Assembly: GCA_964620905.1 (NCBI GenBank)
Contig: CAZUKA010000002.1
Location: 25,496-89,495 of the forward strand
DNA: 64,000 bases
Origin: an uncultured Gammaproteobacteria bacterium
GTDB taxonomy: Bacteria; Patescibacteriota; Patescibacteriia; S139-126
Reading direction: 5' to 3'
The translations under genes and the position numbers were made by a program. The notes under the pieces were generated by a model, which made no database searches, was not told where the DNA came from, and saw only the letters and a program-made list of their open reading frames with translations. Positions 11,639 through 59,852 of the stretch are shown in pieces (the stretch's first letter is position 1; each line of letters begins with the position of its first letter).

Positions 11639-11658
11639 CTCTTTTCTTTTCTCTCTTT

Positions 11659-12017: not shown

Positions 12018-12023
12018 TCTTTT

Positions 12024-12050
12024 AAACCCGCTCTTTATTGGAGCGGGTTT
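12024..12050 (+). other. GC-rich hairpin immediately 3' of TR (aaacccgctc-tttattg-gagcgggttt)
   Basis: 10-bp stem. It overlaps the stop of the minus-strand Avd-like ORF. Confidence 0.5.
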
Positions 12051-46419: not shown

Positions 46420-46462
46420 TATAAATATCGGCACTGGTAATAATAAATAAAATATAAAATCT

Positions 46463-46888
46463 ATGAATAAGTCATTAAAAAATATTATCCCAATTGTATT
46501 AGTATTAATTGCAGGTGTTGTTAGTATAGGTTATTTTATTTGGCAGAGTAGAATTGATAATAAATTACCTATTTCTAATGGAAGAAATTGTTTTAATGAA
46601 AATGTGTCAAAAAGTTATGACGGTGTTGGTTGTGTAGAGAAATATGAAATGTTTGATGGAATAAATTTTAAAGATGCCGTTTGCTGTGAGGGATTAGTAG
46701 AAATAAAACCAGACCTTGAACCAAAATCTTGTCTTCCATATAAGGTCGAAACTAAAGGCAGTGATGGGTTAGGAGAAGATTGTTATTTTGGAGCGATGCA
46801 TCCCTTGGGCTTATGCATGCCTTGTGGCGACGGAGTCTGTGAGCCATTAGAGAATTGGTGCAATTGCCCAGCAGACTGTAATAAATGA
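46463..46888 (+). CDS. small secreted Cys-rich protein (paralogous family)
   Basis: MNKSLKNIIPIVLVLIAGVVSIGYFIWQS, then 12 Cys. Confidence 0.5.
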   Translation: MNKSLKNIIPIVLVLIAGVVSIGYFIWQSRIDNKLPISNGRNCFNENVSKSYDGVGCVEKYEMFDGINFKDAVCCEGLVEIKPDLEPKSCLPYKVETKGSDGLGEDCYFGAMHPLGLCMPCGDGVCEPLENWCNCPADCNK

Positions 46889-47099: not shown

Positions 47100-48080
47100 T
47101 TATATTTTTGTTCTGACAATTATACTAATAGCAATTAAAACAACAATAGCCCCTACCCATTGTTCGATTGAAAATATATTATCATGAAAAATAAATTCCA
47201 ATACCACCGCACTCACCGGGAACGTCATTTCATAAATTGTGGATTGGGAAGCAAGGATTTTTTTTAAACCCCAATAATATAGCAAAATAGAGGTACCACC
47301 AGTAGTTAGAGCCACTACTATAAAAGCTCCGATCAAACTCCAATTGATAGCATCAAAACCATTAATTCCTTGATAGTTGGTATTAACACCTACTGAATTT
47401 AGAATTGAGATTACAATTATTATTATAGCCATGATCCCAGTTGTCAGATAAAATCGTAAGGCAGTACCTAAGCTATGACTAATTTTAGTGACTGCCTTTT
47501 TGGAGAAAACTGTGGAAGATCCAAAAGAAAATGCTGCTAAAATGGCTAGCATAGCTGGGATAAACATACTAGTCGTATCAAAGTCTGGTTGACTGAATCC
47601 AAAGGTTAGGATATAACTGCCAATCAAGGCTACAAAAGCCCAAAAGTAGAACATTTTTTTTGGTCGTTCTTTTAACCACAGAAGTGCTAACAGAATAGCA
47701 AAAATAGGCTGCAGTTTTTGTAATAGAAGAACAACGGAAATATTTAGATGCCCAGTATGGACAATTACGATAGCAGCGATGATTGCCATAGTACCAATTG
47801 CACCGCCAAATAAACTAGTTAAAATCAAGGCCAACCAATCTTTTTTGTCTAAATTTTTAAGCTGACTTCTTTTTTTGAAAAAGAAATATGATAGAAAAAT
47901 GGAGGCTACGGCGTGTAACATAAAAACAAAAGTAGGCACATCTGATAGTCCCAAATCAACAATCCAAGGTGTTAGTACCACTCCATCAAAGGCCCATAAA
48001 AATGCCGCCAACATAACGGCCAATACAGAAAAAATTTCAATATGTTTTTTCATATAAGAAATTATAACAGAAATAAACAT
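47100..48080 (-). CDS. EamA/DMT-family transporter
   Basis: 10 TM helices in two EamA-like halves. Confidence 0.7.
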   Translation of the reverse strand: MFISVIISYMKKHIEIFSVLAVMLAAFLWAFDGVVLTPWIVDLGLSDVPTFVFMLHAVASIFLSYFFFKKRSQLKNLDKKDWLALILTSLFGGAIGTMAIIAAIVIVHTGHLNISVVLLLQKLQPIFAILLALLWLKERPKKMFYFWAFVALIGSYILTFGFSQPDFDTTSMFIPAMLAILAAFSFGSSTVFSKKAVTKISHSLGTALRFYLTTGIMAIIIIVISILNSVGVNTNYQGINGFDAINWSLIGAFIVVALTTGGTSILLYYWGLKKILASQSTIYEMTFPVSAVVLEFIFHDNIFSIEQWVGAIVVLIAISIIVRTKI

Positions 48081-48390
48081 ATTATTCTATTTATATTAAA
48101 TATACAAAATATCTTTGGAATATTAAGATTGTTTGAAAAAAATTTATAGGTAAGACATAAATTTAAAATATAAACTACTCCATATTCGGAGCGTTTTTTT
48201 CTTATCTAAACAAACTGTCAAATTTTGTAAAATAATGAGGTGCTTAAGTGAATTACATTAAAACTAAGGTGATTTTTGGCTTTGTTAATGAAGTTGAATT
48301 ATAACCAATTAGTATTGACTTTTTCCTAAAAATTTGCTATTATTTAATGTTTAGTAATAATTAACAATCAAAAAATTACTGGAGAAAAAA

Positions 48391-48606
48391 ATGAAAAAGG
48401 ATGTTGGTCCCACTATCTTATTAATTGTTGGATTTTGTATATGTATTATGTCAGTTTTGAGCTGGCAGATGACTTGGTACATTAATCCATGGATTGGAAC
48501 AATTGGTTTATTATTTGGTTTAGTTCTAATTTTTTTATCTTTAATTTTTTCATTTATTATAAAAATAATAAATGGTATATTGAAAACAATAATCAATTTT
48601 TTTTAA
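48391..48606 (+). CDS. small 2-TM membrane protein (71 aa)
   Basis: GGAG RBS at -8, two hydrophobic helices, terminator hairpin downstream. Confidence 0.45.
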   Translation: MKKDVGPTILLIVGFCICIMSVLSWQMTWYINPWIGTIGLLFGLVLIFLSLIFSFIIKIINGILKTIINFF

Positions 48607-48745
48607 CCTAAAAAATATAAATTTTTTATAACTGCTCTCTTATAGAGCGGTTTTTTATTAACTAAGGTGTCTGGATTTTTGAGGAGAAGGTAGTATTTCA
48701 GGTGAAATTTTGATAAAATAAAAGTAATATAATTTACTAAAATAT

Positions 48746-48928
48746 ATGTATAAAATAAACAAACATATGTATAAGGAAATTGATAAGTACAATTATAAAG
48801 GTTGGTTAAACTCTGATAGCTTTATAAAAAGAGTAATCGCCGTCAATGGTTATTTTTTAACAGGGCAATTACTCCTTTTATTTATTGCTAGTATTGTCAC
48901 TTTCATTTTAGTTTCTAATTTTATTTAG
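48746..48928 (+). CDS. small membrane protein (60 aa)
   Basis: Short ORF with a C-terminal TM, located between repeat modules. Confidence 0.3.
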   Translation: MYKINKHMYKEIDKYNYKGWLNSDSFIKRVIAVNGYFLTGQLLLLFIASIVTFILVSNFI

Positions 48929-48963
48929 TTACTAAATTTATTTTATTTTAAGTTGTTAGTTTT

Positions 48964-49100
48964 AAAACCACTCCTCTCGGAGCGGTTTTTTCTATGTCAA
49001 AATATGTAAAATGGGGTCCCACCAGGTGCGATTTTGGAACCCCTTGATTGAGGAGTTGAAGTTGTGGATGGAGGGGTTGGAGATGGTGGTTTAGATTAGA
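48964..49100 (+). repeat. terminator + conserved block module, copy (tRNA-His-proximal repeat family)
   Basis: aaaaccactcctctcggagcggttttttctatgtcaaaatatgtaaaatggggtcccaccaggtgcgattttggaaccccttgattgaggagttgaagttgtgg... Confidence 0.8.
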
Positions 49101-49157
49101 TAGCAAATAAAAAAGGTCTACTAAAATTAGCAGACCTAAATTTTTTAAAAATTTTAA

Positions 49158-49400
49158 CTAATCTGTATCAGCTTTTATGCATCCACCAATAACTATACCG
49201 ATTCCAGCAATTGCCGCTACAATAAAAAGAGGTGATTGATGCCCCTCTAATGGCAAAAATACTTGTACAATTGATGCAAATCCACAAACACTTATTATTG
49301 CCCCAGTAAACCTAGGAAGAATTTTTGCTAATATGATAAGTACCAGACCAATTATTTGTAGACCCGCACAGATGATTGATAAAGTTTCCAAGTTAAACAT
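49158..49400 (-). CDS. small 3-TM membrane protein (80 aa)
   Basis: ORF on the minus strand inside the repeat-delimited array. Confidence 0.4.
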   Translation of the reverse strand: MFNLETLSIICAGLQIIGLVLIILAKILPRFTGAIISVCGFASIVQVFLPLEGHQSPLFIVAAIAGIGIVIGGCIKADTD

Positions 49401-49477
49401 TTTAACCCCACTATTTATTTGTATTGTTAATGTGAATTAATGGAGTATAATAGCATAAGTATATTGAATTGTCAATA

Positions 49478-49630
49478 TAAAACCGCTCCTTTCGGAGCGG
49501 TTTTTTCTATGTAAAAATATGTAAAATGGGGTGGCACCAGGTGCGATTTTGGAATCCCTTGATTGAGGAGTTGAAGTTGTGGGTAAGTGGTATTAGAGAT
49601 TGCTGTTTAGGTAGGATTTTGGTAGAATTA
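49478..49630 (+). repeat. terminator + conserved block + extended -10 (TGGTAGAAT) module, copy
   Basis: Near-identical to the 48964-49100 and 56382-56532 copies. ATG of the downstream gene is 6 nt after TAGAAT. Confidence 0.8.
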
Positions 49631-49634
49631 AAGT

Positions 49635-50003
49635 ATGAATGAATATATAATGCCATCAGAATTTTCTAATTTTTTTAAGCCAACTAAACGTAAAGTACTA
49701 GTATCTTTACTAATACCGTTTATAATATTAGGACTGCCTTTATTATTTTTAGTAATCAGAGCCTTTTTGTGTTTTAACTGGAATGGTTATAATTGTTCAG
49801 GTGCCACAGATGCAATATTTGAGATTCTTTCATATCCTTTCTTATTATTATTTATTGTACCATTAGAAAAACTAGAATTATTTTTTTCACCAAAAACATT
49901 TAGTGGCGAAGTTATATTATTTATAAGTTTAATTATTTTTTATTTATTTTTGAGTTATCTTTTTGTTTCATTTTATTATCATAAAAGGAATAAAAATATT
50001 TAA
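49635..50003 (+). CDS. membrane protein (122 aa)
   Basis: ORF immediately downstream of a module promoter; 3 TM helices. Confidence 0.45.
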   Translation: MNEYIMPSEFSNFFKPTKRKVLVSLLIPFIILGLPLLFLVIRAFLCFNWNGYNCSGATDAIFEILSYPFLLLFIVPLEKLELFFSPKTFSGEVILFISLIIFYLFLSYLFVSFYYHKRNKNI

Positions 50004-50025
50004 ATTTTTATATAATAAATAAAAA

Positions 50026-50170
50026 TTGCCCCCTCTCGGAGCGGTTTTTTCTTATCTAAATCTACTGTCAAATTATGTAAAATGGGGTGCCTTCGTAGAC
50101 GCTATTAGAACTAAGATTATTTATAGTTTTGAGGAAGAGATGGCTCAATAGGTAAGTTTTTGGTAGAATT
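50026..50170 (+). repeat. repeat module, variant copy
   Basis: ccccctctcggagcggttttttcttatctaaatctactgtcaaattatgtaaaatggggtgcc ... tttttggtagaatt. Confidence 0.75.
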
Positions 50171-50175
50171 AGTAT

Positions 50176-50802
50176 ATGATTAGATTTTTCAGTAAAATAT
50201 TTTTACCATTTAAAGTGGCTGGCGGATATGCAATAGTATTAACATTATTTGTTGTTGGAGTTTCAGCATTTGTTTATTCTGGTGGATTTCTAGATTTGCC
50301 CTTAATTTTTATTTTTTTACCACCATTTCCGGCAATAATTACACTTCCAATTACAATTGTAATATGTTGGTTTATTGCATCATTATTAATTAAATTACAA
50401 AGAAAAATATTACCAAATAAAGAACGTTTATTTACCTATTCAATTATCATAATTCTAGTTTTAATTATATTTATATTTTCTGTTCCTGTTTATGCAACAC
50501 GTATAATTAAAATAATTCCAACCTCTCAGATTTGTTGGATTGCGGATAACTGGGATAATTGGGCGCCTAGTAATAAATACGAAGGTACTAAATGTTATAC
50601 TGCGTTAGCAATTAAAAAAAACGATTTAGATCTATGTGGTGATCTTAATTATGAATTCTTGAGAGAGGGATGTTATGTACAGATGGCAATTTTTAATAAT
50701 GATATCACTATTTGTGAAAAGTATATTCATAAAGTTCCTAATTATATATATCCCGATACTAATATTAATGATTGTAAAAAAAGAGTTCAACGAGGAAAAT
50801 AA
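50176..50802 (+). CDS. membrane protein with Cys-rich C-terminal domain (208 aa)
   Basis: Multi-TM N-terminal half; C-terminus with 8 Cys (CWIADNW...CYTALA...CGDLNYEFLREGCYVQ...CEKY...CKK). Confidence 0.45.
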   Translation: MIRFFSKIFLPFKVAGGYAIVLTLFVVGVSAFVYSGGFLDLPLIFIFLPPFPAIITLPITIVICWFIASLLIKLQRKILPNKERLFTYSIIIILVLIIFIFSVPVYATRIIKIIPTSQICWIADNWDNWAPSNKYEGTKCYTALAIKKNDLDLCGDLNYEFLREGCYVQMAIFNNDITICEKYIHKVPNYIYPDTNINDCKKRVQRGK

Positions 50803-50819
50803 TTTTAATTTAATAATTA

Positions 50820-50900
50820 CAAACCGCCCCCTCTCGGAGCGGTTTTTTCTTATCTAAATCTACTGTCAAATTTTGTAAAATGGGGTCGCTTGGGAACTTA
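50820..50900 (+). repeat. repeat module, partial copy (terminator + proximal block)
   Basis: aaaccgccccctctcggagcggttttttcttatctaaatctactgtcaaattttgtaaaatggggtcgc. Confidence 0.75.
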
Positions 50901-51048
50901 AGTTATAACTTTAAAATGATTAGTGATATATCACACCCCTAATGAATTTAAAATGGTTAAAATAAATTTTTGTATAAATACTATGCCAGGCAAGAATATA
51001 AATTACCGATCTAAGATTGTTTGATGCCCCTATATTTTTTATTTGCAA

Positions 51049-54000
51049 TTATTTTTTAAACCAAGGGGAATGGGTATAACCTTCTTTACCCGACCAGAGG
51101 TAGAGAGTGGGAATATCGGAATAAAGTTCTTGATGAATATCGCTTGAATAAGTCCAAAAAATAATATTTTTAAATTCTTTTTTAAGAGCTTCGGATTCAA
51201 TTTTTCTCATCACATAATATCTCTTGGCTTCATTTTTATAATCCTTAAATCCTCTATGTTTGGCTGATTTTTCTAGCTCGGCACTGTTTTTTAAATCTCG
51301 CCACTCTCTTTCTGTTAATAATTTAAGATTATTTTTTATTATAATGTCAGATAATTTTTGTCTTTTCCATAGTTCACTTAAATATTTACTGGTATATCCA
51401 GCTTTTTTAATAAGTTTTTTTATTTCTTTTAGATATTGTTCATAAGTATTTTTATTATACTTATTCAACCTTGCATGTTCGTTAGCTAAAATAAAAATAA
51501 AATTAAGACCCGGCTTATAAATGTTTTTAATTTGATTATTTAACTGTTGAAATTTTTTTAATGCCGCTAAGTCTTTTTCGTCTATTTTTAATTTATCAGA
51601 TGCTCCCCAGAAACCAACTAAATCAATCGGTTTATTTTTTAAAACAAACTGATTGATTGCAAAGGCGATCTCGTCCTCCTTATAGGGGACATCTCTTGAA
51701 ATATTTCTTTGATTGAATAATTTTAAAATTTCATCAGCTATAGATGGTTTAATAAATTGTGGCAAACTCGCCCTCATTAACCAAGGATAGATTTTATACC
51801 ACGCTTGTCTAGCATTTTCTATACCCGCACTATTGATTTTTAATTTTTTATCCCAAAATTTTATTAATTCATTAAACATAACATCATGATTTAGCATAGT
51901 TGGAAATTCATTTGTAAAATATTTCAAAGCCTTAATTTTGTTTTTCTTTATAAAATTTATTGTTTCTTTTAAAGCCGAAACAAAAGATATGATTGCGGGT
52001 TGAAATTTTGGATCAAGATTATCGCAGATTGTAATACCTGTAAATAAATAATCTCTAAAATAATCTTCAAAAGAATAAACAATATGTCCCCCGCGACCAA
52101 CTAAGTCTAATGCATAATCTACAGTCATAATACCAATATCCACCTTTCTTTCTTTTAATGCCTTAACTAAGGCATTAGATTTAATAGGAATAAATTTTTT
52201 ATTGGGTAATATTTTTTTAGCAAGTGTATTGGTTGTTGAAAATTCTTGATAGGTACCAATTTTGTAATTATAAAAATCATCTAATTTTTTAATTTTTATA
52301 TTTGGGTCTAATGTAACTGCGACCACGGGAACACGACCGATTAATTGTCCAACAATTTTTCCTTTGGTTTTAAAATTTGAAGCAAAAGAAAAAACTGGAT
52401 CAGCGATACCTATTTGAGCAGAGCCTGACATTAAGGAATTATAAGTTAAATCATCGCCCCCCGAAGAAATAAAATCTATATCTAGTTTGTGTTTTTTATA
52501 ATAACCTAATTTGGCTGCTAAGTAGGCCGGAAAATAAAGGGGCATTCTTGAAAATTCAGCCACCAACATTCTGTATTCTCCCGGCTTATCATCGATAGTA
52601 CTTAATGTTTCTTTAGTGATTATTCGATGATAATTTTTATGTAGTTTATTAAATTTAAGATTTTTGTACTTGTTGAAATAAACTAATTCTTCTTCGGTTA
52701 AAAAACCATATCTCTGTTTAGTTGGATAATCTAGTTTACCTTTATTTTCTGATAATACTGCCTTGGCCACATCGCCATCTTGTGTTCTAAAATTAAAACC
52801 AACATTCATACCTGCACCATTGGAAAATGGAACTTTGTAACGCCAGGCAATATAATCGGGCAAGAATTCTTCGGCTACCTTTCTTAAAATATATTTAGTA
52901 GTAACTTGATGATTTTCTCTTTTAATTTTTAGACTACCATCAATTTGTAGGGCAAATTCTGCGACTTTGGTATCAAAAAATGGAGCTCGAGTTTCCAATG
53001 TATGTTTCATAGACATTCTATCCACGCGCATATTATGGCTTCGTTCCAAATCATTAGTGATTAGATAGCAACCCTTATTTACATGTTCATCACTTAATCT
53101 TGAAAACTCATTATAGCCCCCAAATAGTTCATCTGCTGCTTCACCAACTAATGCTATACGATAACCAGCTCGAACCACTTCTTTTGAAAGGATGTCTAGC
53201 GCAAAAGATTGTCTTATAACTTGAGCCTCATACATTTCTAGATGATAGATTAAGTTTTCAAATTCTTTTGCATAATCAACATTCGGATAAACAATATGAT
53301 ATTTATAATTATTGTCTTTGCATAACTTTAAAGAAGCTTCATAATCAGAAGAGCCTGGGAAGCCAAGTATAAAGGCAGTTACGTTTTTATGAAATCTTGT
53401 AGCTATCTCCATTATAAGACTACTGTCAACACCACCGCTTAATAAAACTGCGATTGGCAAATCAGTATCAACTCTTTTTTTTACTGCTTCGACCATTAAT
53501 TCAGTTAATTTTGTTTTTGCAAAATCTAAATCTTTAATTTTGTTGTTGTAATTTATTTTGTGATAAGCTTTTATTCTCCCATTATACATATAACATCCTT
53601 TGGGGAAAATTTTTACTTCTTTTATAAAATCGAATTGTACTAGCTGTTTTATTTCCGAACCAAAATAAAAGTTTTTATTTTTATCTCTAGCATAAAATAA
53701 AGGTTTTACACCAAAACGATCTCTAGCTACAAAAAAATTATTTTTCTTAGTATCATAAATTACAAAGGCATACATTTCCGAATCAATTTTTTCGATCATT
53801 TTTTCTCCGTACTCCTCATACAAATGTGCTAATACTTCCGTGTCACAATCCGTTTTGAATTTATGCTTCTTTTTTTCTAATTGAGATCGTAATTCTTTAT
53901 AATTAAATATTTCACCGTTTTGGGCAGCAAAAATAGTACCATCTTCATTAGATAGCGGTTGATGACCAGTATCACGACCAACAATTGGTAAGCGATTGGC

Positions 54001-54132
54001 TCCTAAGGCACCTTTCTCAAAAACTCTTAATTCATAAAAATTAGTACCTCGATGTTTAATCTTACTTAAAGAATCTCTCATGAATAATTCTTTTTTTTGG
54101 TAATTGCCGAAAACAGCTGTAATTCCACACAT
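51049..54132 (-). CDS. asparagine-synthetase (glutamine-hydrolysing) homologue fused to an NMT1/SsuA-like periplasmic-binding-fold domain and a ~280-aa C-terminal domain of unknown function (1027 aa)
   Basis: Ntn amidotransferase MCGITAVFG, PP-loop SGGVDSS, AsnB C-domain. Residues ~520-760 resemble NMT1/THI5/SsuA binding proteins. The C-terminal third has no recognisable family. Confidence 0.75.
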   Translation of the reverse strand: MCGITAVFGNYQKKELFMRDSLSKIKHRGTNFYELRVFEKGALGANRLPIVGRDTGHQPLSNEDGTIFAAQNGEIFNYKELRSQLEKKKHKFKTDCDTEVLAHLYEEYGEKMIEKIDSEMYAFVIYDTKKNNFFVARDRFGVKPLFYARDKNKNFYFGSEIKQLVQFDFIKEVKIFPKGCYMYNGRIKAYHKINYNNKIKDLDFAKTKLTELMVEAVKKRVDTDLPIAVLLSGGVDSSLIMEIATRFHKNVTAFILGFPGSSDYEASLKLCKDNNYKYHIVYPNVDYAKEFENLIYHLEMYEAQVIRQSFALDILSKEVVRAGYRIALVGEAADELFGGYNEFSRLSDEHVNKGCYLITNDLERSHNMRVDRMSMKHTLETRAPFFDTKVAEFALQIDGSLKIKRENHQVTTKYILRKVAEEFLPDYIAWRYKVPFSNGAGMNVGFNFRTQDGDVAKAVLSENKGKLDYPTKQRYGFLTEEELVYFNKYKNLKFNKLHKNYHRIITKETLSTIDDKPGEYRMLVAEFSRMPLYFPAYLAAKLGYYKKHKLDIDFISSGGDDLTYNSLMSGSAQIGIADPVFSFASNFKTKGKIVGQLIGRVPVVAVTLDPNIKIKKLDDFYNYKIGTYQEFSTTNTLAKKILPNKKFIPIKSNALVKALKERKVDIGIMTVDYALDLVGRGGHIVYSFEDYFRDYLFTGITICDNLDPKFQPAIISFVSALKETINFIKKNKIKALKYFTNEFPTMLNHDVMFNELIKFWDKKLKINSAGIENARQAWYKIYPWLMRASLPQFIKPSIADEILKLFNQRNISRDVPYKEDEIAFAINQFVLKNKPIDLVGFWGASDKLKIDEKDLAALKKFQQLNNQIKNIYKPGLNFIFILANEHARLNKYNKNTYEQYLKEIKKLIKKAGYTSKYLSELWKRQKLSDIIIKNNLKLLTEREWRDLKNSAELEKSAKHRGFKDYKNEAKRYYVMRKIESEALKKEFKNIIFWTYSSDIHQELYSDIPTLYLWSGKEGYTHSPWFKK

Positions 54133-54222
54133 AAATTATGATTTTAATAAATAATTTATTTTGTAAAAAATAAAATTTTAAAAGAGTTATATAAATATTT
54201 TTTAATAGTCTAATTATATCAC

Positions 54223-54375
54223 AAAACCGCCCCATCTCGGAGCGGTTTTTTTAATGTTATAAATCGGCCTGAATGGCTGTGCCATCTGAAGCTTTAGCGT
54301 AGGATGGGGTGGCACCAGGTGCTATTTTTGAACCCCTTGATTGAGGAGTTAAAGTTGTGGGTGGAGTCAATGGTA
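54223..54375 (+). repeat. repeat module copy (upstream of the AsnB-fusion start)
   Basis: aaaaccgccccatctcggagcggttttttt ... ggatggggtggcaccaggtgctatttttgaaccccttgattgaggagttaaagttgtgggtggag. Confidence 0.75.
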
Positions 54376-54518
54376 ACGTGTTAATATTGACTTTTTCGTA
54401 AAAATATGCTACAATTCAATATTCTAAATCGTACATACACAATAAAAAATAAGCCATCGAGAGGATGGCGATGTTCAAAAAACATTGACACGAGAAGTGT
54501 CAGAAAGGATTCAACATC

Positions 54519-54920
54519 GTGAAGGCAAAACAAATTATAACAGCTTTACAGTTCGCAGCCAGCGAACTTGTCATCGAACTCTGTTCAGATTTACGCCTCG
54601 TATTCCGAGAGAATGCACCATTACCAAGGCAGGGTTTAAATTTGAAAATATTATACAGAGCAAACGCTAGTGTACTAAAAGATGGATTTCCTGAATTAGG
54701 ACTTACTCACTACTCTAACGCATATCTGTTCCAAGTCGAAATAGAAGTTGTAGGATGGGAAAAGAAAAATAAACTACGTTGTTGGTTTGCTAAAAGCCAA
54801 ACGCAAGAGCATCCAGGCTGGTGGCCTCTTAAAGGGGAATTGAATTATAATCGTACAAAAATTGAATTTCATTGCCGTGCCAAAGAAAATAATGCAATAG
54901 AAATTTTTGAACATCGATAG
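54519..54920 (+). CDS. hypothetical protein (133 aa), locally GC-elevated
   Basis: ORF preceded by the palindrome TGACAC-N5-GTGTCA (54485-54501), which overlaps a TTGACA box. Confidence 0.4.
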   Translation: MKAKQIITALQFAASELVIELCSDLRLVFRENAPLPRQGLNLKILYRANASVLKDGFPELGLTHYSNAYLFQVEIEVVGWEKKNKLRCWFAKSQTQEHPGWWPLKGELNYNRTKIEFHCRAKENNAIEIFEHR

Positions 54921-54952
54921 CCCAAAGAACAAACGTTAATTTCGTTTCCTAT

Positions 54953-54980
54953 AAAACCGCTCCTCATCTGAGCGGTTTTT
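54953..54980 (+). terminator. family terminator hairpin (aaaaccgctcctcatctgagcggttttt)
   Basis: Same hairpin family as the module terminators. Confidence 0.7.
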
Positions 54981-55063
54981 AAATTTATATTTTTTAATTC
55001 AATTGGGGTCAATTCAAAATCACCAAACCTGGCAAACCAAGTTTTTTAGCTTATATAAAACAA

Positions 55064-55196
55064 AAGCACCTCCTCGGTAGAGGAGATGTTCTTATGGGGT
55101 GGCACCAGGTGCGATTTTGGAACTCTTTGATTGAGGAATTGAAAAAGTGGGTGGAGGGGTTAGAGATGGTTGTTTAGGTAGGATTTTGGTAGAATT
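55064..55196 (+). repeat. repeat module conserved block + extended -10, copy
   Basis: ttatggggtggcaccaggtgcgattttggaactctttgattgaggaattgaaaaagtgggtggaggggttagagatggttgtttaggtaggattttggtagaatt. Confidence 0.8.
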
Positions 55197-55212
55197 AAAT
55201 TGAATTTATCAT

Positions 55213-55917
55213 TTGACTATGTCTAAAAGGTATTATCCAAATATTAAGTTTAGTGTTAGTTTAGCGAGAGAAAAAAAGATTTTTTTAGAGAGAAAAAGAA
55301 ATTTGCAAAAGTTTTTGCCCGCAGAAATAAGTTTTGTTACAAATAGAAAATACGCAAGTTATAGAAATGAATTATTATCCTCTTATTTGGATGTTTATTA
55401 TTCAGATAAGAAAAAGTTTTTAATAGAAAGTGTTAGAAATACAAAAAGTAAATGGCAGAAAGTAGAGAAAAAATTTTTTATAAAAGTTGATAAGATTTTT
55501 AATAATTGGCCTTGGCCTAAAGGTAATTATAGGGGGTATGTTTCTATTGCCCATTCTTTTCCTCGCAACATAAAGGATAAGACTTTTTCTTTTCCAGTAA
55601 AAGATTATATACCAGGACGAGAGAACAATGATATACGTGTGATAGCACACGAGATGCTTCATTTTATAGAATATGATTATTTACAGAAAAAATTTGGATT
55701 GAAAGCAAGTGAACACGATTCATTTGATAATACCTTTTGGCAATTTACCGAAAATTTAAATGTATTAATTCAAAATACTAGTTTTTGGAAAGAATTTAGT
55801 ACAGGTGTTAAATCAAAGCCATATGACGATTGTAAAAAAATGTATAATAAGATGAAAAGCATATGGGATAGAGATAAGAGTATTGATAGACTAGTTGATA
55901 AAATTTTTTATAGTTAA
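55213..55917 (+). CDS. hypothetical protein with HExxH zinc-metallopeptidase-like motif (234 aa)
   Basis: VIAHEMLHFIEYDY. No signal peptide. Driven by a module promoter. Confidence 0.45.
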   Translation: MTMSKRYYPNIKFSVSLAREKKIFLERKRNLQKFLPAEISFVTNRKYASYRNELLSSYLDVYYSDKKKFLIESVRNTKSKWQKVEKKFFIKVDKIFNNWPWPKGNYRGYVSIAHSFPRNIKDKTFSFPVKDYIPGRENNDIRVIAHEMLHFIEYDYLQKKFGLKASEHDSFDNTFWQFTENLNVLIQNTSFWKEFSTGVKSKPYDDCKKMYNKMKSIWDRDKSIDRLVDKIFYS

Positions 55918-55926
55918 TCAATTACA

Positions 55927-55955
55927 AAAGTCGCCCCATCTTGGAGCGGTTTTTC
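55927..55955 (+). terminator. family terminator hairpin (tcgccccatcttggagcggttttt)
   Basis: Same hairpin family. Confidence 0.65.
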
Positions 55956-56079
55956 TAACTTGACTATTCTATATAAGGGTTATAGGATAGTATGTTAGTT
56001 CATTAAAAAAATGTAAATAAAACCATCAAAAAATAAATAATTATTATAAACAAATTCAAAGAAAGATTAGGGTATTTAT

Positions 56080-56367
56080 ATGTCAGAACTTCATAATATT
56101 CAAGTCAAAATGGTTAAAGAAAACAAACCAGATTTAACTTTAGATGATTTGGAAATTTTTCACGCAGATTGTGGAGGAGGTAAAATTTCAAATAAAAATC
56201 TTCTAGGTGGTAAAAATTTAAAATGCACGAGATGTCTTGAAGAAGTGTATTTTTCATACAGTGAAATAGGAACAATATATAAAACCGCCCTTACGGGTGA
56301 AAAGCTGGAACTTGTGTGTTACAGAATAAATGGTAATAGATCCCATTTTATAGAAGTTCTTAATTAA
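56080..56367 (+). CDS. small zinc-ribbon protein (95 aa)
   Basis: CGGG...CTRC and a second C pair. Confidence 0.4.
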   Translation: MSELHNIQVKMVKENKPDLTLDDLEIFHADCGGGKISNKNLLGGKNLKCTRCLEEVYFSYSEIGTIYKTALTGEKLELVCYRINGNRSHFIEVLN

Positions 56368-56381
56368 TAAATTGTTTAATT

Positions 56382-56532
56382 AAACCGCCCCATCTCGGAG
56401 CGGTTTTTTCTTTGTCAAAATATGTAAAAATGGGGTGGCACCAGGTGCGATTTTGGAACCCCTTGATTGAGGAGCTAAAGTTGTGGGTGGAGGGGTTAGA
56501 GGTGGTTGTTTAGGTGAGCATTTGGTAGAATA
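56382..56532 (+). repeat. repeat module copy (terminator + conserved block + TGGTAGAAT)
   Basis: ttaaaccgccccatctcggagcggttttttctttgtcaaaatatgtaaaaatggggtggcaccaggtgcgattttggaaccccttgattgaggagctaaagttgtgggtggaggggttagaggtggttgtttaggtgagcatttggtagaat. Confidence 0.8.
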
Positions 56533-56556
56533 TAGGTAATATTAAACATAAATTCT

Positions 56557-57396
56557 ATGAGTAAGTCATTAAAAATTATTGTCCCTGTAATATTGGTATT
56601 AGTAGTAGGTGGTGCTGTGGCAGGATATTTGTATTGGCAAAATATAAACCCTGATGTTATAGAGGAACCACTGCCCCAACAACAAGTTAAAAGTGATGAT
56701 AAACAAGTACAAAATAATGAGACTGACAGTACAACCAATACAAATATAGACCGAATTAATTATTTAAAAGAAAATGTTCCTACTGAGATTTTAAATTATA
56801 ATTCTGATAAAGATAATAATGATTCAGATTTAGATGGTTTACCAGACAATCTCGAAGATATCTTAGGGACCAACCATAATAAATCAGATTCTGATGATGA
56901 TGGTTTTAATGATATAGATGAATTAAAAGCCGGCTATAATCCGCTTGGTAATGGAACGATTTTTGATTCAACAGATGATAAAATTAAGAGTAATGGATTG
57001 TGGTATTTTATTAGATATCAGCAATCAAATGATGCACAGCGTTTTAGTAATATTAGTACAATACGTACAGCTCTAGATTTATATTATAAAGATTATGGTG
57101 TTTACCCATCTGCAGAAGGTGAAATTATTCTTGGAAAAGATGTAAAAAGTTTAACAAAGTCAGGTTGGGGTAATGAGGTAGGTAGCGGAATGAATTATAT
57201 GAACTTAGTGTATGATAATACTTCTCCTGGTGGTATTCCTTTTACATATTGCACCACTGATAATAATGATATAGAGAAGTGTTCTAAATCCATTTCTTCT
57301 TATATAATAAAATTTAAACTTGAGATTGGAGTTCAAACAGATTTTGGAGTTTTAGGTCCAGGATTGCACATCGCTACACCAAATGGTTTTCAATAA
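56557..57396 (+). CDS. membrane-anchored protein with thrombospondin-3-like Ca-binding segment and C-terminal pseudopilin/type-IV-pilin-like globular domain
   Basis: N-terminus MSKSLKIIVPVILVLVVGGAVAGYLYWQ (family signal-anchor). DSDLDGLPDNLEDILGTNHNKSDSDDDGFNDIDELKAGYNPL. The segment QRFSNISTIRTALDLYYKDYGVYPS matches the GspG/pilin alpha-beta loop motif. No canonical G-FTLIE prepilin N-terminus. Confidence 0.5.
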   Translation: MSKSLKIIVPVILVLVVGGAVAGYLYWQNINPDVIEEPLPQQQVKSDDKQVQNNETDSTTNTNIDRINYLKENVPTEILNYNSDKDNNDSDLDGLPDNLEDILGTNHNKSDSDDDGFNDIDELKAGYNPLGNGTIFDSTDDKIKSNGLWYFIRYQQSNDAQRFSNISTIRTALDLYYKDYGVYPSAEGEIILGKDVKSLTKSGWGNEVGSGMNYMNLVYDNTSPGGIPFTYCTTDNNDIEKCSKSISSYIIKFKLEIGVQTDFGVLGPGLHIATPNGFQ

Positions 57397-57426
57397 ATAT
57401 ATTTTAATAGTGTTTATTCTATTTAC

Positions 57427-57475
57427 AAAACCGCCCCCTCTCGGAGCGGTTTTTTCTATGTCAAAATATGTAAAA
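57427..57475 (+). repeat. terminal repeat-module copy (terminator + proximal block) abutting the tRNA-His 3' end
   Basis: ccgccccctctcggagcggttttttctatgtcaaaatatgtaaaa, followed directly by tggggtggc, which is the 3' end of tRNA-His. Confidence 0.8.
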
Positions 57476-57550
57476 TGGGGTGGCTAGAGGGAGTCGAACC
57501 CTCGCCAGCGGGACCACAACCCGCTGTTCTACCGTTAAACTATAGCCACC
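57476..57550 (-). tRNA. tRNA-His (anticodon GTG), encoded CCA, G-1:C73
   Basis: Reverse complement folds as G(-1)GTGGCTA acceptor, anticodon stem GCGGG/CCCGC with loop TTGTGGT, T-arm GGGTTCGACTCCC, 3' TAGCCAC-C-CCA. Confidence 0.85.
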
Positions 57551-58725: not shown

Positions 58726-58800
58726 TGGTGCCCCGACCAGGACTCGAACCTGGATCTAGAGCTTAGAAGGCTCCTATTCTATCCCTTGAACTATCGGGGC
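58726..58800 (-). tRNA. tRNA-Arg (anticodon TCT), encoded CCA
   Basis: Reverse complement: GCCCCGA acceptor, anticodon arm GGAGC-CTTCTAA-GCTCT, T-arm CCAGGTTCGAGTCCTGG, 3' TCGGGGC-A-CCA. Confidence 0.85.
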
Positions 58801-58850: not shown

Positions 58851-58880
58851 GAATTAGGAATTAAGAATTAGGAATTAAGG
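58851..58880. repeat. 4 tandem copies of an 8-mer (gaattagg/gaattaag); an inverted partial copy lies at 58703-58722 on the other side of tRNA-Arg
   Basis: gaattaggaattaagaattaggaattaagg vs cttaattcgtaattctaatta. Confidence 0.6.
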
Positions 58881-59852
58881 TTTTTTTCTATGATGGAAAT
58901 TTTTGTGAATTTCTTTGAGTTGGCGATTGGTAATGTGCGTATAAATTTGGGTAGTAGTGATAGAAGCGTGTCCGAGCATAGCCTGCACTGATCTGATATC
59001 AGCCCCGTTTTGCAAAAGATCAGTGGCAAAGGAATGTCGGAGTGTATGAGGGGTGACTTTTTTGGTGATACCAGCAGCTTTACTATAAAATTTAATAAGT
59101 CTTTCCACGCTTCTTGGTGTCAGAGCGTGGACAACTTTATTATCCTTTTTCAATCTTTTATTTTTGGCTCGATCGTGTCCGACAAAAAGCGATGGATCAA
59201 CATCTTGTCTCTTGTCCAGGTAAGTTCGCAGGGAATTTTTGGCATTGTCAGACAAAAAGACCAAACGATTTTTACCGCCTTTACCTGTTACGGTAAATTC
59301 GTCTTTTTTTAAATTGATTTGTTCACGGGTTAGATTGGTGAGTTCAGACACGCGCAGTCCGGTTGAAAAAAGCATTTCCAAAATCGCTTTATCGCGATAA
59401 CGAATGATTTCATTTTGTTCCAATTTTATTGGCGCATTGAGTAGTCTCTCCAAATCATCACCTTCGAGGAAGTCAACTTCTCTTTCTGGTTGTTTTGCCA
59501 GTTCAATCTTTTCTGACGCTAGTGTCTTAATGTCTTGCTTGGCTAGATATTTTAAAAAAGTTCGCAATGCGATAAGATGATAGTTTTGAGTTGATTTTTT
59601 CAACGGTTTTCCTTGTTTGTCGGTTTGACGATTGAGCCAAAGACGAAACTGTTTTATTTTGTGTAAAGTTATATCAGCTGGTTTAAGGTTTTTTTTACCC
59701 AACCAGGAAAAAAATCTCAATAAATAAAAACTATAATTTCTAATTGTGCGTAATGACCGTCCCTTTTCAATTTCCAAATAGTTTAAAAAATCTTTGGCCC
59801 ACCGACCCAAAGAATTAAAACTGTCCAGTTTTTTGATAGCGTTGTCTGACAT
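58875..59852 (-). CDS. tyrosine site-specific recombinase, XerC/XerD-like
   Basis: N-terminal SAM-like core-binding domain; catalytic R...HTLRHSFAT...LGHASITTTQIYTH with Tyr. Confidence 0.8.
   Translation of the reverse strand: MSDNAIKKLDSFNSLGRWAKDFLNYLEIEKGRSLRTIRNYSFYLLRFFSWLGKKNLKPADITLHKIKQFRLWLNRQTDKQGKPLKKSTQNYHLIALRTFLKYLAKQDIKTLASEKIELAKQPEREVDFLEGDDLERLLNAPIKLEQNEIIRYRDKAILEMLFSTGLRVSELTNLTREQINLKKDEFTVTGKGGKNRLVFLSDNAKNSLRTYLDKRQDVDPSLFVGHDRAKNKRLKKDNKVVHALTPRSVERLIKFYSKAAGITKKVTPHTLRHSFATDLLQNGADIRSVQAMLGHASITTTQIYTHITNRQLKEIHKNFHHRKKP

What the first reader, a model, noticed from the sequence alone, without database searches (positions are those of the whole stretch)
48150..57480. 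Array of ~11 near-identical terminator + G-rich block + extended -10 promoter modules delimiting accessory gene cassettes
A composite module recurs between 48.1 and 57.5 kb. It consists of the hairpin aaaccgcccc(c/a)tctcggagcggtttttt, then ctatgtcaaaatatgtaaaatggggtggcaccaggtgcgattttggaaccccttgattgaggagttgaagttgtgggtggaggggttagagatggttgtttaggtaggatttTGGTAGAATt, and 6-25 nt later an ATG. Full copies are at 48964, 49478, 50026, 54223, 55064 and 56382. Partial copies are at 48176, 50820 and 57427. Terminator-only copies are at 48631, 54953 and 55927. All are in the same orientation. Each copy precedes a different small gene: 2-3-TM peptides, an HExxH protein, a zinc ribbon, a pilin-like protein and the AsnB fusion. 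The conserved block has ~9-bp periodic G-rich repeats (ttgaggagt/tgaagttgt/gggtggagg/ggttagaga/tggttgttt/aggtaggat) suggestive of stacked activator sites. The organisation resembles an integron-like or hotspot cassette system, but each cassette carries its own identical promoter. No integrase gene lies inside the array.
Basis: seen in the sequence. Interest (0 to 1): 0.8.

Follow-up and report, generated by a model that had tools for sequence, protein, structure and literature searches.

The report
Gene-cassette array anchored at tRNA-His
A 9.3-kb stretch of a Patescibacteria (CPR) chromosome holds about ten small single-gene units, each ending in a copy of the last 9-10 bases of the neighbouring tRNA-His gene plus its terminator, which marks it as a site where foreign genes are inserted one after another at the tRNA end by an enzyme not yet identified.

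Summary
The repeats are real, lie at the stated coordinates and are confined to 48.1-57.5 kb of the window. The motif ATGGGGTGGC in every module is the antisense of that tRNA's 3' end. The hairpin and spacer are its downstream terminator.

Each unit has four parts: a variable left end that often carries a promoter, one gene, a terminator hairpin with spacer, and the tRNA-end core. Related metagenome contigs carry the same modules next to their own tRNA-His but with entirely different genes. Modules are 90-98% identical between genomes whose core genes are about 70-77% identical.

Four combinations of flank families (R2 or R4 on the left, A or C on the right) are joined through only the 11-nt ATGGGGTGGCA. 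This implies recombination inside the core, which is too short for RecA.

My best reading is serial site-specific insertion of integrase-less cassettes at the tRNA-His 3' end. It resembles a tRNA-anchored island made of CIME-like units, with some integron-like traits.

No recombinase lies in the array. The Xer-type gene 1.4 kb away keeps the same position in relatives that lack arrays. The G-rich block belongs to the junction, not to the promoter, and has no 9-bp periodicity. I rate this a new variant of a known kind, of moderate to high interest.

The parts
57476..57549 (-). tRNA-His(gtg), the anchor of the array. Its 3' end GCCACCCCA is the 'core' copied at every cassette junction.
   Evidence: ARAGORN; Rfam tRNA 67 bits.
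57427..57484 (+). tRNA-proximal R1 unit: hairpin AAAACCGCCCC/GGAGCGGTTTT, spacer CTATGTCAAAATATGTAAA and core ATGGGGTGGC, which is the tRNA 3' end. It serves as terminator both for tRNA-His (minus strand) and for the last cassette gene (plus strand).
56382..56439 (+). R1 unit (hairpin, spacer, core) ending cassette 8.
56440..56532 (+). A-type left end (G block 56440-56492) followed by the promoter-like TGGTAGAAT at 56523-56531.
56557..57396 (+). Cassette 9 gene: 279 aa with an N-terminal membrane anchor and a weak TSP3 repeat hit, pilin-like. An independent Logan contig (L108) carries this gene with module parts at both ends.
55064..55103 (+). R2-type unit: a different hairpin CACCTCCTCGGTAGAGGAG, then GATGTTCTT and the core. 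The same family occurs in L109 and resembles the native tRNA-His flank of L116.
55104..55196 (+). A-type left end (G block 55104-55156) followed by TGGTAGAAT at 55187-55195.
55219..55917 (+). Cassette 8 gene: HExxH protein, 232 aa. It belongs to a family found in many Patescibacteria. The closest homologues sit just downstream of tRNA-Asp.
55927..55955 (+). R1-like hairpin without a core. It is either an internal terminator or a decayed junction.
56080..56367 (+). Cassette 8b gene: 95 aa with a CxxC...CxxC zinc-ribbon-like motif.
54223..54313 (+). R4-type unit: the R1 hairpin, a spacer carrying a roughly 31-nt insert (..GCCATCTGAAGCTTTAGCGTAGG) and the core. The same family occurs in L105 and L106.
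54314..54415 (+). A-type left end (first 53 nt only, 54314-54366) joined to the second promoter type, TTGACT-17-TACAAT with an upstream TG (54387-54415).
   Evidence: (D9).
54519..54920 (+). Cassette 7 gene: 133 aa, no family match.
54953..54981 (+). R1-like hairpin without a core, acting as terminator after the 133-aa gene.
51049..54132 (-). Cassette 6 gene, reversed: 1027-aa asparagine synthase B fused to an NMT1/THI5-like domain and a C-terminal extension.
50820..50889 (+). R1' unit: the same hairpin, the longer spacer CTTATCTAAATCTACTGTCAAATTTTGTAAA and the core variant ATGGGGTCGC. It is followed by the E-type left end TTGGGAACTTAAGT, also seen at L109:18399.
   Evidence: (D4).
50176..50802 (+). 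Cassette 5 gene: 208-aa membrane protein.
50026..50169 (+). R1' unit with core ATGGGGTGCC (50082-50091), then the B-type left end with TGGTAGAAT (50161-50169). The B type is also found in L104.
49635..50003 (+). Cassette 4 gene: 122-aa membrane protein.
49478..49628 (+). R1 unit with core 49526-49535, the A-type G block and TGGTAGAAT at 49620-49628.
49158..49400 (-). Cassette 3 gene, reversed: 80-aa membrane protein. It has its own promoter (TTGACA-17-TATTAT, 49475-49447) and its own terminator (49137-49114).
48964..49073 (+). R1 unit with core variant ATGGGGTCCC (49011-49020), then the A-type G block with no promoter part.
48746..48928 (+). Cassette 2 gene: 60 aa.
48630..48729 (+). Decayed module: a terminator hairpin and a degenerate promoter part (TGATAAAAT at 48711).
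   Evidence: (D5, D8).
48391..48606 (+). Cassette 1 gene: 71-aa membrane peptide, preceded by a TTGACT-17-TATTAT promoter at 48315-48343.
   Evidence: (D9).
48176..48243 (+). The outermost and most decayed R1' unit. It marks the distal edge of the array, next to the EamA transporter gene 47100-48080 on the minus strand.
   Evidence: (D4).
58875..59852 (-). Xer-type tyrosine recombinase, the only recombinase in the window. It is a candidate enzyme, but its position is conserved in relatives that have no array.
58726..58800 (-). tRNA-Arg(tct), part of the conserved Xer / tRNA-Arg / tRNA-His neighbourhood.

Best explanation
The region is an insertion hotspot anchored at the 3' end of tRNA-His. 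Small integrase-less cassettes have been inserted one after another by site-specific recombination inside the roughly 11-nt core ATGGGGTGGCA, which is the antisense of the tRNA's GCCACCCCA end.

Each cassette brings three things. First, a left end from one of a few conserved families (A, the G-rich block, plus B, C and E), usually followed by an outward promoter of the organism's normal TGnTAnAAT or TTGACT-17-TAnnAT type set close to the start codon. Second, one gene, occasionally two, in either orientation. Third, a right end of about 60-90 nt made of an intrinsic terminator hairpin, a spacer and the core.

Insertion therefore restores a terminator behind tRNA-His and a fresh core for the next insertion, and pushes older cassettes outward. 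The result is an array of separately transcribed, terminator-bounded accessory genes.

Shown here: the anatomy, the tRNA identity of the core, a cassette-level difference between near-identical contigs from one metagenome, recombination within the core, and module identity across genomes that far exceeds core-gene identity.

Inferred: the enzyme class (a tyrosine recombinase acting in trans, either the adjacent Xer-type enzyme or an integrase on an unseen element), the polarity of insertion, and the activity of the promoters and terminators.
For: 1. **The core is the tRNA-His 3' end.** The copy at 57427 continues directly into tRNA-His. ATGGGGTGGC with up to 1 mismatch gives 8 matches against 1.78 expected; 7 are in the array and all are on the + strand.

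2. **The architecture recurs next to tRNA-His in relatives.** It is found in L103, L105, L107 and L109. In L109 the array spans about 7.9 kb and carries cargo that looks foreign: a Por_Secre_tail/cohesin protein, a trpB-like gene, a GNAT and a dCMP deaminase.

3. **Gene content is unrelated between arrays.** Only the modules match. L103 has the same tRNA-His/PDGLE/CbiM flank as the window (77% identity) but a different tRNA-proximal cassette.

4. **One metagenome shows a cassette-level difference.** L105 and L106 are 99.4% identical up to the last base of the core and then diverge. They are 94% identical again in the last unit before the tRNA.

5. **Four-gamete pattern across the core.** R4-A is seen at window 54304 and L106:1223, R4-C at L105:156, R2-A at window 55094 and R2-C at L109:14641. 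The two sides share only ATGGGGTGGCA.

6. **Modules are far more conserved than the genomes.** They are 90-98% identical between genomes whose Xer and S15-PNPase DNA is 70-72% identical and whose tRNA-His is 79.5% identical. G-block identity is 88.5% within genomes and 91.5% between genomes, so there is no concerted evolution.

7. **A longer tRNA-His remnant marks an old L109 junction.** CTACTGGGATTTGAAC matches the T-arm region better than any of 500 shuffles. A duplicated 14-nt tRNA end brackets a 200-nt insert in L105, L106 and L107.

8. **The outermost copies are the most decayed**.

9. **Composition differs.** Array GC is 0.300 against 0.348 and 0.374 in the flanks, and individual cassettes range from 0.225 to 0.370.

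10. **Homologues of two cargo genes lie next to other tRNA genes in other Patescibacteria.** For the HExxH protein the segments are bracketed by repeats of the tRNA end plus terminator. AsnB-fusion homologues lie next to tRNA-Ala(ggc).

11. **The promoter type is the organism's usual one.** 21 of 47 TGNTANAAT sites fall in the 14% of the window that is intergenic, and many lie 1-25 nt from a start codon.
Against: - No integrase, excisionase or transposase lies in or beside any of the arrays seen.
- The adjacent Xer-type gene holds the same syntenic position in relatives without arrays (L110, L111, L112, L116). It is 65-70% identical across many Patescibacteria lineages, so it looks like the housekeeping enzyme.
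- Only 9-10 nt of the tRNA are duplicated, and the identity extends downstream of the tRNA rather than into it. This is unusual for tRNA-targeting integrases.
- No circular or excised form and no empty site was observed.
- No identical cassette was found at two different positions.
- The decay gradient along the array is weak.
- The order of cassettes inside a repeat-rich array depends on the assembly. The Logan assembly of the same run breaks at the modules.
Confidence: 0.62

Rival explanations
1. There is no site-specific enzyme. The modules act as portable homology. DNA taken up from relatives replaces or adds blocks by RecA-dependent double crossover in the 60-190-nt modules, and loop-out between direct repeats deletes blocks. 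The sharp boundaries at the core would then only mark where homology ends.
For: - RecA is encoded in the window.
- The modules are long enough for homologous recombination.
- The L105/L106 difference is bounded on both sides by long shared segments, so that case alone fits block replacement.
- No recombinase lies in the arrays.
Against: - All four combinations R2/R4 x A/C exist, although the two sides are linked only by 11 shared bases. That is too short for efficient RecA exchange.
- At least five unrelated left-end families start exactly after the core. Homologous recombination can shuffle junctions but cannot create them.
- This model does not explain why the shared motif is the tRNA-His 3' end, nor the duplicated 14-nt tRNA end around the 200-nt insert in L105.
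Confidence: 0.17
2. The recombination uses folded single-stranded DNA, as in integron attC sites or IS200/IS605 and REP-RAYT elements. The right-end hairpin would be the recognised structure, and cleavage would occur just 3' of GGTGGC. This would explain the absence of terminal inverted repeats and the strict single orientation.
For: - Every right-end family has a hairpin 25-40 nt before the core.
- All units have the same orientation.
- In some copies the left arm of the hairpin, CCGCCCCAT, is 89% complementary to the core ATGGGGTGG. This loosely recalls the R''/R' boxes of attC.
- Unit size (about 60-130 nt) is in the attC range.
Against: - No IntI-type recombinase is present: the integron-integrase model scores 133.8 against a cutoff of 265.
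- No family match to an HUH transposase was returned for the 50 window ORFs put through Pfam; the smaller ORFs were not scanned.
- The hairpin is an ordinary GC-rich stem followed by a T-run, as in a terminator.
- The arm-core complementarity is absent from other copies, such as 57427 and 50820.
- No nested R/L pairing is possible.
Confidence: 0.1
3. The module is itself a small mobile or regulatory repeat, comparable to a MITE or a Correia element: a terminator-plus-promoter unit that has spread into pre-existing intergenic regions of a gene cluster. The G block would be an operator for a shared regulator.
For: - The module carries both terminator-like and promoter-like elements.
- Several cassettes share an almost identical upstream region.
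Against: - The module is confined to one locus and always to one orientation.
- The genes between modules are not syntenic in relatives.
- The G block persists where there is no downstream promoter or gene in that orientation.
- There are no terminal inverted repeats and no target duplications other than the tRNA core.
- There is no 9-bp periodicity.
- The module is absent from phage, plasmid and viral collections.
Confidence: 0.05

Closest known systems
tRNA-anchored genomic islands built by repeated site-specific integration (Prochlorococcus islands and tycheposons; Hackl et al., bioRxiv 10.1101/2020.12.28.424599)
   Same: - Insertion occurs at the 3' end of a tRNA gene.
[quoted passage not shown]
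- Remnants and extra partial tRNAs are scattered through the island.
- Cargo varies between co-occurring cells.
   Different: - Tycheposons carry their own tyrosine or serine recombinase and often replication genes, and are several kb long. Here the units are 0.35-3.4 kb, usually hold one gene and have no recombinase.
- Only 9-10 nt of the tRNA are repeated here, and the identity continues into the downstream terminator.
- The units here share conserved left-end and promoter modules.
- The host is a Patescibacteria bacterium.
CIMEs (cis-mobilizable elements) and tandem accretion at att sites (Pavlovic 2004 and Bellanger 2011, as reviewed in PMC5704250)
   Same: [quoted passage not shown] They lack integration genes and are arranged in tandem by accretion at the att site next to the target gene.
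   Different: - CIMEs are described as decayed ICEs or IMEs of Firmicutes, usually one or two per site. Here there are about ten very small units, and nothing shows that they derive from decayed larger elements.
- The conserved ends are shared across genomes with about 70% core-gene DNA identity.
Chromosomal (sedentary) integrons, such as Vibrio arrays with highly similar attC repeats
   Same: - A long unidirectional array of mostly single-gene cassettes.
- Each cassette ends in a conserved, hairpin-containing 60-130-nt repeat.
- The crossover lies at the extreme right of the repeat, so the next cassette begins with arbitrary sequence.
- Cassette content differs between strains.
- A tyrosine recombinase gene lies beside the array.
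   Different: - There is no IntI: the integron-integrase model falls below its cutoff.
- No attI/Pc arrangement is present. The anchor is a tRNA end.
- Cassettes carry their own promoters and may be reversed.
- The repeat is a plain terminator hairpin, not an R''-L''/L'-R' structure.
Xer-dependent integrated elements and dif modules (IMEX; pdif modules of Acinetobacter plasmids) — comparison from my own knowledge
   Same: Small integrase-less modules bounded by short recombination sites and presumably moved by a host-encoded Xer recombinase. A single Xer-type gene lies 1.4 kb from the array.
   Different: - No 11-6-11 dif-like dyad was recognised in the module.
- GC skew does not change sign at the locus, so it is not at the terminus.
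- The site is a tRNA end.
- The same Xer/tRNA neighbourhood exists in relatives without arrays.

Membership tests
Integron | An IntI-type tyrosine recombinase that meets the integron-integrase model. | tested here: not met
   The only recombinase (58875-59852) scores 133.8 bits on TIGR02249 (cutoff 265) and 82.7 on NF011946 (cutoff 435). Its best matches are XerD, XerC and XerA.
Integron | attC sites: imperfect inverted repeats (R''-L''...L'-R') conserved in structure. | tested here: inconclusive
   The right-end units contain a simple hairpin. In some copies a 9-nt arm is 89% complementary to the core, but other copies lack this and no nested pairing exists. No attC model was available to run.
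Integron | Promoterless cassettes expressed from a common Pc beside attI. | tested here: not met
   At least six cassettes have their own promoter-like element 1-103 nt before the start codon, and two are reversed.
tRNA-anchored island formed by site-specific integration | The array abuts a tRNA gene, and its units are separated by direct repeats of that tRNA's 3' end. | tested here: met
   tRNA-His lies at 57476-57549. Cores are at 49011, 49526, 50082, 50880, 54304, 55094, 56430 and 57475. The same holds in L105, L107 and L109. L109 has a 15-nt T-arm remnant that matches better than any of 500 shuffles.
tRNA-anchored island formed by site-specific integration | Content varies between related genomes, with breakpoints at the att core. 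| tested here: met
   L105 against L106; L103 against the window; four-gamete pattern across the 11-nt core.
Tycheposon, or any autonomous integrative element (ICE, IME, prophage) | The element encodes its own integrase (and replication or transfer genes). | tested here: not met
   tblastn finds no second tyrosine recombinase in the window, L105, L109, L110 or L111. Cassette proteins have no recombinase domains.
CIME (cis-mobilizable element) | Bounded by attL/attR-type repeats while lacking integration and transfer genes. | tested here: met
   Each unit lies between two core copies and has no recombinase.
CIME (cis-mobilizable element) | Derived by decay of an ICE or IME, and mobilised in cis by a neighbouring functional element. 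| not testable with these tools
   No functional element was seen in any array. No excision data are available.
MITE- or REP-type dispersed repeat | Many copies dispersed around the genome, in both orientations, in otherwise syntenic intergenic regions. | tested here: not met
   All copies lie in one 9.3-kb locus and in one orientation. The flanking genes are not syntenic in relatives. Only 64 kb of the genome could be examined.
IMEX / dif module | A dif-like Xer site (two roughly 11-bp arms around a 6-8-bp centre) at the junctions, usually at the replication terminus. | tested here: inconclusive
   No convincing dyad surrounds the core. Cumulative GC skew rises through the locus without a turning point. 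The dif site of Patescibacteria is not known to me.
Known structured RNA family | A match to an Rfam covariance model, or covariation support for a fold. | tested here: not met
   Only the tRNAs pass Rfam thresholds. RNAalifold on 10 G blocks gives -9 kcal/mol with no compensatory pairs.

The most novel reading that the evidence does not exclude
A previously undescribed gene-capture platform in Patescibacteria that works like an integron without an integron integrase. The 3' end of tRNA-His serves as the fixed insertion site. A host recombinase acting in trans, possibly the single Xer-type enzyme encoded 1.4 kb away, inserts and excises integrase-less single-gene cassettes. The recombination site of each cassette is its 60-130-nt terminator-plus-core module. 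Each cassette brings its own promoter. The cassette pool is shared across genera of these reduced-genome bacteria, for which I know of few described routes of gene transfer.
Probability: 0.2. Interest if true: 0.85.

Novelty: new variant of a known kind. Interest (0 to 1): 0.6.

Why it matters
Patescibacteria (CPR) have genomes of about 1 Mb, depend on host cells, and to my knowledge have few documented plasmids, conjugative elements or prophages. How they gain and swap accessory genes is therefore largely unknown.

This locus shows a compact, ordered way of doing so. Membrane, surface and enzyme genes are slotted in at a tRNA end as separately transcribed units bounded by terminators. Their boundary sequences are shared between genomes that are otherwise only about 70-77% identical in core-gene DNA.

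If a host enzyme moves the cassettes, this would be a new integron-like capture system. Even if not, the conserved modules give a practical handle for mining the flexible gene pool of these organisms from metagenomes, through an nhmmer profile or PCR between modules. They also explain why assemblies break at this site.

Tried and rejected
1. **G block as a decayed tRNA-His fragment.** Beyond the 9-nt core, local alignment to the tRNA in either orientation scores no better than shuffles (135-489 of 500 shuffles score as high). Only the old L109 junction is significant.

2. **G block as a small protein gene (MGWHQVRFWNPLIEELKLWVEGLEMVV).** There is no ribosome-binding site. The frame is broken by 1-nt indels in 2 of 10 copies. 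Variable sites fall 4/4/8 over the three codon positions, which is not significant.

3. **G block as a structured RNA.** There is no Rfam match and no covariation.

4. **9-bp periodic repeats.** TRF finds none.

5. **Phage or plasmid origin of the module.** blastn against 50,697 phage records and 72,556 plasmid records finds nothing. Three pattern scans of viral contigs find nothing.

6. **A wasted scan.** The genome-contig scan with the 17-mer GGGGTGGCACCAGGTGC returned only chance hits in GC-rich genomes. None extends into the module. The module's distribution among reference genomes therefore remains untested.

7. **Concerted evolution within a genome.** Rejected: identity is 88.5% within genomes and 91.5% between them.

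8. **A clean decay gradient away from the tRNA.** Only the two outermost copies are clearly more decayed.

9. **Finding the same cassette elsewhere.** Exact-protein look-ups of window cassettes returned only fragments from the same sequencing run. Homologues of the HExxH and AsnB-fusion genes lie at other tRNA genes and are not flanked by this module.

10. **A second recombinase.** tblastn finds none, and Pfam returned no recombinase or transposase family for any of the 50 window ORFs scanned; the smaller ORFs were not scanned.

Full report
**1. Observation**

The hairpin core CTCGGAGCGGTTTTTT (up to 3 mismatches) gives 12 matches in the 64-kb window against 0.43 expected, and ten of them lie between 48.1 and 57.5 kb on the + strand. 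The first 45 nt of the G-rich block occur 5 times against 0 expected. TTTGGTAGAAT occurs exactly 4 times, only here. An alignment of the 12 copies and an nhmmer profile show that the module occurs nowhere else in the window.

The copies are less uniform than described:
- Only four carry TGGTAGAAT.
- Copy 54223 is joined to a different promoter, TTGACT-17-TACAAT.
- Copy 48964 has no promoter part.
- Copy 50026 has another left end.
- Copy 55064 has another hairpin.
- The AsnB-fusion gene lies on the opposite strand.

**2.

The last copy (57427) runs straight into tRNA-His(gtg) at 57476-57549 on the minus strand. The motif TGGGGTGGC shared by all modules is the reverse complement of the tRNA's 3' end, GCCAC-C-CCA. 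The hairpin and spacer are therefore the tRNA's own downstream terminator, read on the other strand. ATGGGGTGGC with up to 1 mismatch occurs 8 times against 1.78 expected; 7 of these are in the array and all 8 are on the + strand.

So each repeat is a copy of 'tRNA-His 3' end plus downstream flank'. This is the classical footprint of insertions at a tRNA end.

**3. Anatomy**

Cutting the array at the cores gives nine to ten units of 0.35-3.4 kb. Each unit has three parts.

- **Left end.** It starts immediately after the core and belongs to one of a few families:
  - A: ACCAGGTGCGATTTTGGAACCCC..., the 'G block'
  - B: TTCGTAGACG...
  - C: AATTCGTGGAATATGGCAAAC..., seen only in relatives
  - D: a 200-nt GC-rich piece, seen only in relatives
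  - E: TTGGGAACYYAAGT
- **Gene.** Usually one gene in either orientation, often preceded by TGGTAGAAT 6-25 nt before the start codon or by TTGACT-17-TAYWAT.
- **Right end.** A terminator hairpin, a spacer and the core. The families are R1, R1' (longer spacer), R2 (a different hairpin) and R4 (R1 with a 31-nt insert).

TGNTANAAT is this organism's ordinary promoter motif. Of 47 sites in the window, 21 fall in the 14% of sequence that is intergenic, and 15 lie within 150 nt upstream of a gene on the same strand, often 1-25 nt from the start codon. This makes the promoter reading plausible, but it is not shown.

The first 53 nt of the G block are retained even when the cassette gene is reversed and the promoter part is missing (window 49021-49073; L105:492). 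The block therefore goes with the junction, not with the promoter. TRF finds no 9-bp periodicity.

**4. Organism and neighbourhood**

The window is ordinary chromosome. It encodes FtsK, RecA, EF-P, SSB, S6, Ddl, SHMT and PNPase. It comes from a 266-kb NCBI contig of a Patescibacteria bacterium.

Beyond tRNA-His lie PDGLE, CbiM, tRNA-Arg(tct) and a Xer-type tyrosine recombinase, followed by S15, NYN and PNPase. The recombinase matches the XerD, XerC and XerA models and falls far below the integron-integrase cutoffs. It is 65-70% identical across many Patescibacteria lineages. No second tyrosine recombinase is found in the window or in the related loci.

**5. Relatives**

A metagenome scan with a degenerate G-block pattern returned five contigs. 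Every contig long enough has tRNA-His next to the modules.

- **L103** has the same tRNA-His/PDGLE/CbiM flank as the window (77% DNA identity) but a different cassette next to the tRNA.
- **L105 and L107** show modules, then tRNA-His, tRNA-Arg, Xer, S15, NYN and PNPase.
- **L109** was fetched through a Xer homologue of 80% identity. It has a 7.9-kb array with at least seven core copies. Its cargo includes a Por_Secre_tail/cohesin protein, a trpB-like enzyme, a GNAT and a dCMP deaminase.
- **L110, L111, L112 and L116** (Xer 73-77% identical) keep the Xer/tRNA-Arg/tRNA-His neighbourhood but have a plain terminator after tRNA-His and no array.

The nhmmer profile hits only the window, L001 and L103-L109. 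The array is therefore restricted to one clade, and the Xer gene's position predates it.

**6. Evidence for movement**

(a) No cassette gene is shared between the window and any related array. Only the modules match.

(b) L105 and L106 come from the same metagenome. They are 99.4% identical over 167 nt up to the last base of the core. They then carry different cassettes: two in L105 and one in L106. They are 94% identical again in the final unit before the tRNA.

(c) Modules are 90-98% identical between genomes whose Xer and S15-PNPase DNA is 70-72% identical and whose tRNA-His is only 79.5% identical. G-block identity is no higher within a genome (88.5%) than between genomes (91.5%). This excludes concerted evolution. 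It points to horizontal spread, or to extreme constraint on about 130 nt of non-coding DNA.

(d) All four combinations of two right-end families with two left-end families exist:
- R4-A at window 54304 and L106:1223
- R4-C at L105:156
- R2-A at window 55094
- R2-C at L109:14641

The two sides share only ATGGGGTGGCA. By the four-gamete argument, recombination has occurred inside these 11 bases. Such a short shared segment fits a site-specific enzyme and does not fit RecA.

(e) Some junctions keep more of the tRNA. A 14-nt duplicate (TGGGGTGGCTACTG) brackets the 200-nt insert in L105, L106 and L107. A 15-nt T-arm remnant lies at an old L109 junction and matches better than any of 500 shuffles.

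(f) The R2 flank resembles the native tRNA-His terminator of another lineage, L116. This suggests that units travel between lineages together with their flank.

(g) The array has lower and more uneven GC than its flanks.

**7. Mechanism**

The best-supported account is serial site-specific insertion at the tRNA-His 3' end of integrase-less units. Each unit restores a terminator and a core for the next event.

What is shown: the anatomy, the tRNA identity of the core, the population-level and between-genome variation, and recombination within the core.

What is inferred: the enzyme class, the polarity of insertion (supported only by the two outermost copies being the most decayed), and the activity of the promoters and terminators.

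The enzyme is unknown. The neighbouring Xer-type recombinase is the only candidate in view, but its position is ancestral. An integrase on an unseen element is equally possible.

Rival accounts:
- Exchange by homologous recombination alone explains block replacement. It does not explain how many different junctions arose at one base, nor the four-gamete pattern.
- A single-strand, hairpin-guided mechanism (integron-like or IS200/REP-like) is compatible with the strict orientation and the hairpins. It lacks an enzyme and a convincing attC-like fold.
- A dispersed regulatory repeat or MITE is contradicted by the single locus, the single orientation and the lack of synteny.

**8. Comparison with known systems**

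The closest described phenomenon is the tRNA-anchored island built by repeated integration. There, successive elements are separated by partial tRNA copies and older ones are pushed inward, as reported for Prochlorococcus tycheposons (bioRxiv 10.1101/2020.12.28.424599). Units bounded by att repeats but lacking integration genes correspond to CIMEs formed by tandem accretion (PMC5704250).

The array also resembles a sedentary integron: it is unidirectional, holds single-gene cassettes with a conserved 3' repeat, and the crossover lies at the repeat's right edge. It fails the defining tests, however. There is no IntI, no Pc/attI arrangement, and the cassettes carry promoters.

What sets this locus apart:
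- the very small size and high number of units
- the absence of any element-borne recombinase
- the fact that only 9-10 nt of the tRNA but the whole downstream terminator are copied
- the conserved left-end and promoter modules
- the sharing of these modules across genomes with about 70% core-gene DNA identity
- the host phylum

I found no paper describing such arrays in Patescibacteria, but the searchable library is incomplete.

**9. Broader hint**

The nearest homologues of two cargo genes also lie beside tRNA genes in other Patescibacteria.
- The HExxH protein (62-66% identity) lies 1-1.3 kb downstream of tRNA-Asp(gtc), in segments bracketed by direct repeats of the tRNA end plus terminator (L118 5070-5106 against 7474-7510; L117 8982-9043 against 9913-9974).
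- The AsnB fusion (68% identity) lies next to tRNA-Ala(ggc).

Insertion at a tRNA end with duplication of the terminator may therefore be a general route of gene gain in this phylum.

**10. Caveats**

- The order of cassettes in a repeat-rich array depends on the assembly. An independent Logan assembly of the same run breaks at the modules, although it does confirm cassette 9 with module parts at both ends.
- Only 64 kb of the genome and a handful of related contigs could be examined.
- No excised form, empty site or responsible enzyme was observed.

**Verdict**

This is a real and well-defined tRNA-His-anchored cassette array. It is a new variant of a known kind. Interest is 0.6. I give about a 0.2 chance that it is a true host-recombinase-driven, integron-like capture system, which would be of high interest.

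Noticed in passing
window 10925-13432: A diversity-generating retroelement. The reverse transcriptase (RVT_1) is at 12104-13432. The template repeat is at 11900-12017 and the variable repeat at 11515-11632, at the 3' end of ORF 10925-11638. Within the repeat, every mismatch falls at an adenine of the template repeat.
   Followed up: partly
L105 1441-1640 (also the end of L106, and L107 1286-1485): A roughly 200-nt GC-rich insert without a gene, in a genome of about 32% GC. It sits between a duplicated 14-nt tRNA-His end and the real tRNA-His. Its predicted fold is unusually stable: z = -5.3 on the tRNA strand and -4.7 on the other. It has no Rfam match. It may be a small structured RNA carried as cargo.
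   Followed up: partly
L118 5070-5106 and 7474-7510; L117 8982-9043 and 9913-9974: In other Patescibacteria, homologues of the HExxH cassette gene lie in segments downstream of tRNA-Asp(gtc). These segments are bracketed by direct repeats (78-84% identical) of the last 3-4 nt of the tRNA plus its terminator. The architecture is the same but at a different tRNA.
   Followed up: partly
L122 and L123 13340-13411; L123 8367-8438; L124 6669-6740: Homologues (68% identity) of the 1027-aa AsnB-NMT1 fusion lie next to tRNA-Ala(ggc) in a variable region. L123 has two inverted copies of that tRNA around the segment.
   Followed up: no
window 51049-54132 (minus strand): A 1027-aa protein that fuses asparagine synthase B (GATase and Asn_synthase domains), an NMT1/THI5-like substrate-binding domain and a long C-terminal extension. 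The full-length architecture is conserved in at least 120 Patescibacteria and DPANN proteins. Its function is unknown.
   Followed up: partly
window 54262-54303; L105 125-155; L106 (minus strand) about 1254-1224: A roughly 31-nt insert (GGCATTGCCATCCGAAGCTTTAGCGTAGG) lies in the spacer of some modules. Its first part (AAAATGGCWTTGCCATC) also occurs just upstream of the 5' end of tRNA-His in L105 (about 1725-1745). I have no explanation for this.
   Followed up: no
window 56385-56393 and 56430-56438: In some copies the left arm and loop of the terminator hairpin (CCGCCCCAT) are 89% complementary to the core (ATGGGGTGG) 36 nt downstream. This would allow a pairing that competes with the terminator stem. 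Other copies do not conserve it.
   Followed up: partly
window 46447-46553 and 56541-56647: The 5' end of the pilin-like cassette gene is 74% identical to the 5' end of the 141-aa gene at 46463, outside the array. The genes at 45700, 46117 and 46463 all begin with similar membrane-anchor sequences. This suggests a family of small secreted, cysteine-rich proteins just beyond the EamA gene that bounds the array.
   Followed up: no
window 49011-49020; L104 659-668; L109 about 14012-14003 (minus strand): The same core variant ATGGGGTCCC, always followed by the A-type left end, occurs in three different genomes. This particular junction is therefore either old or has been transferred between them.
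   Followed up: no
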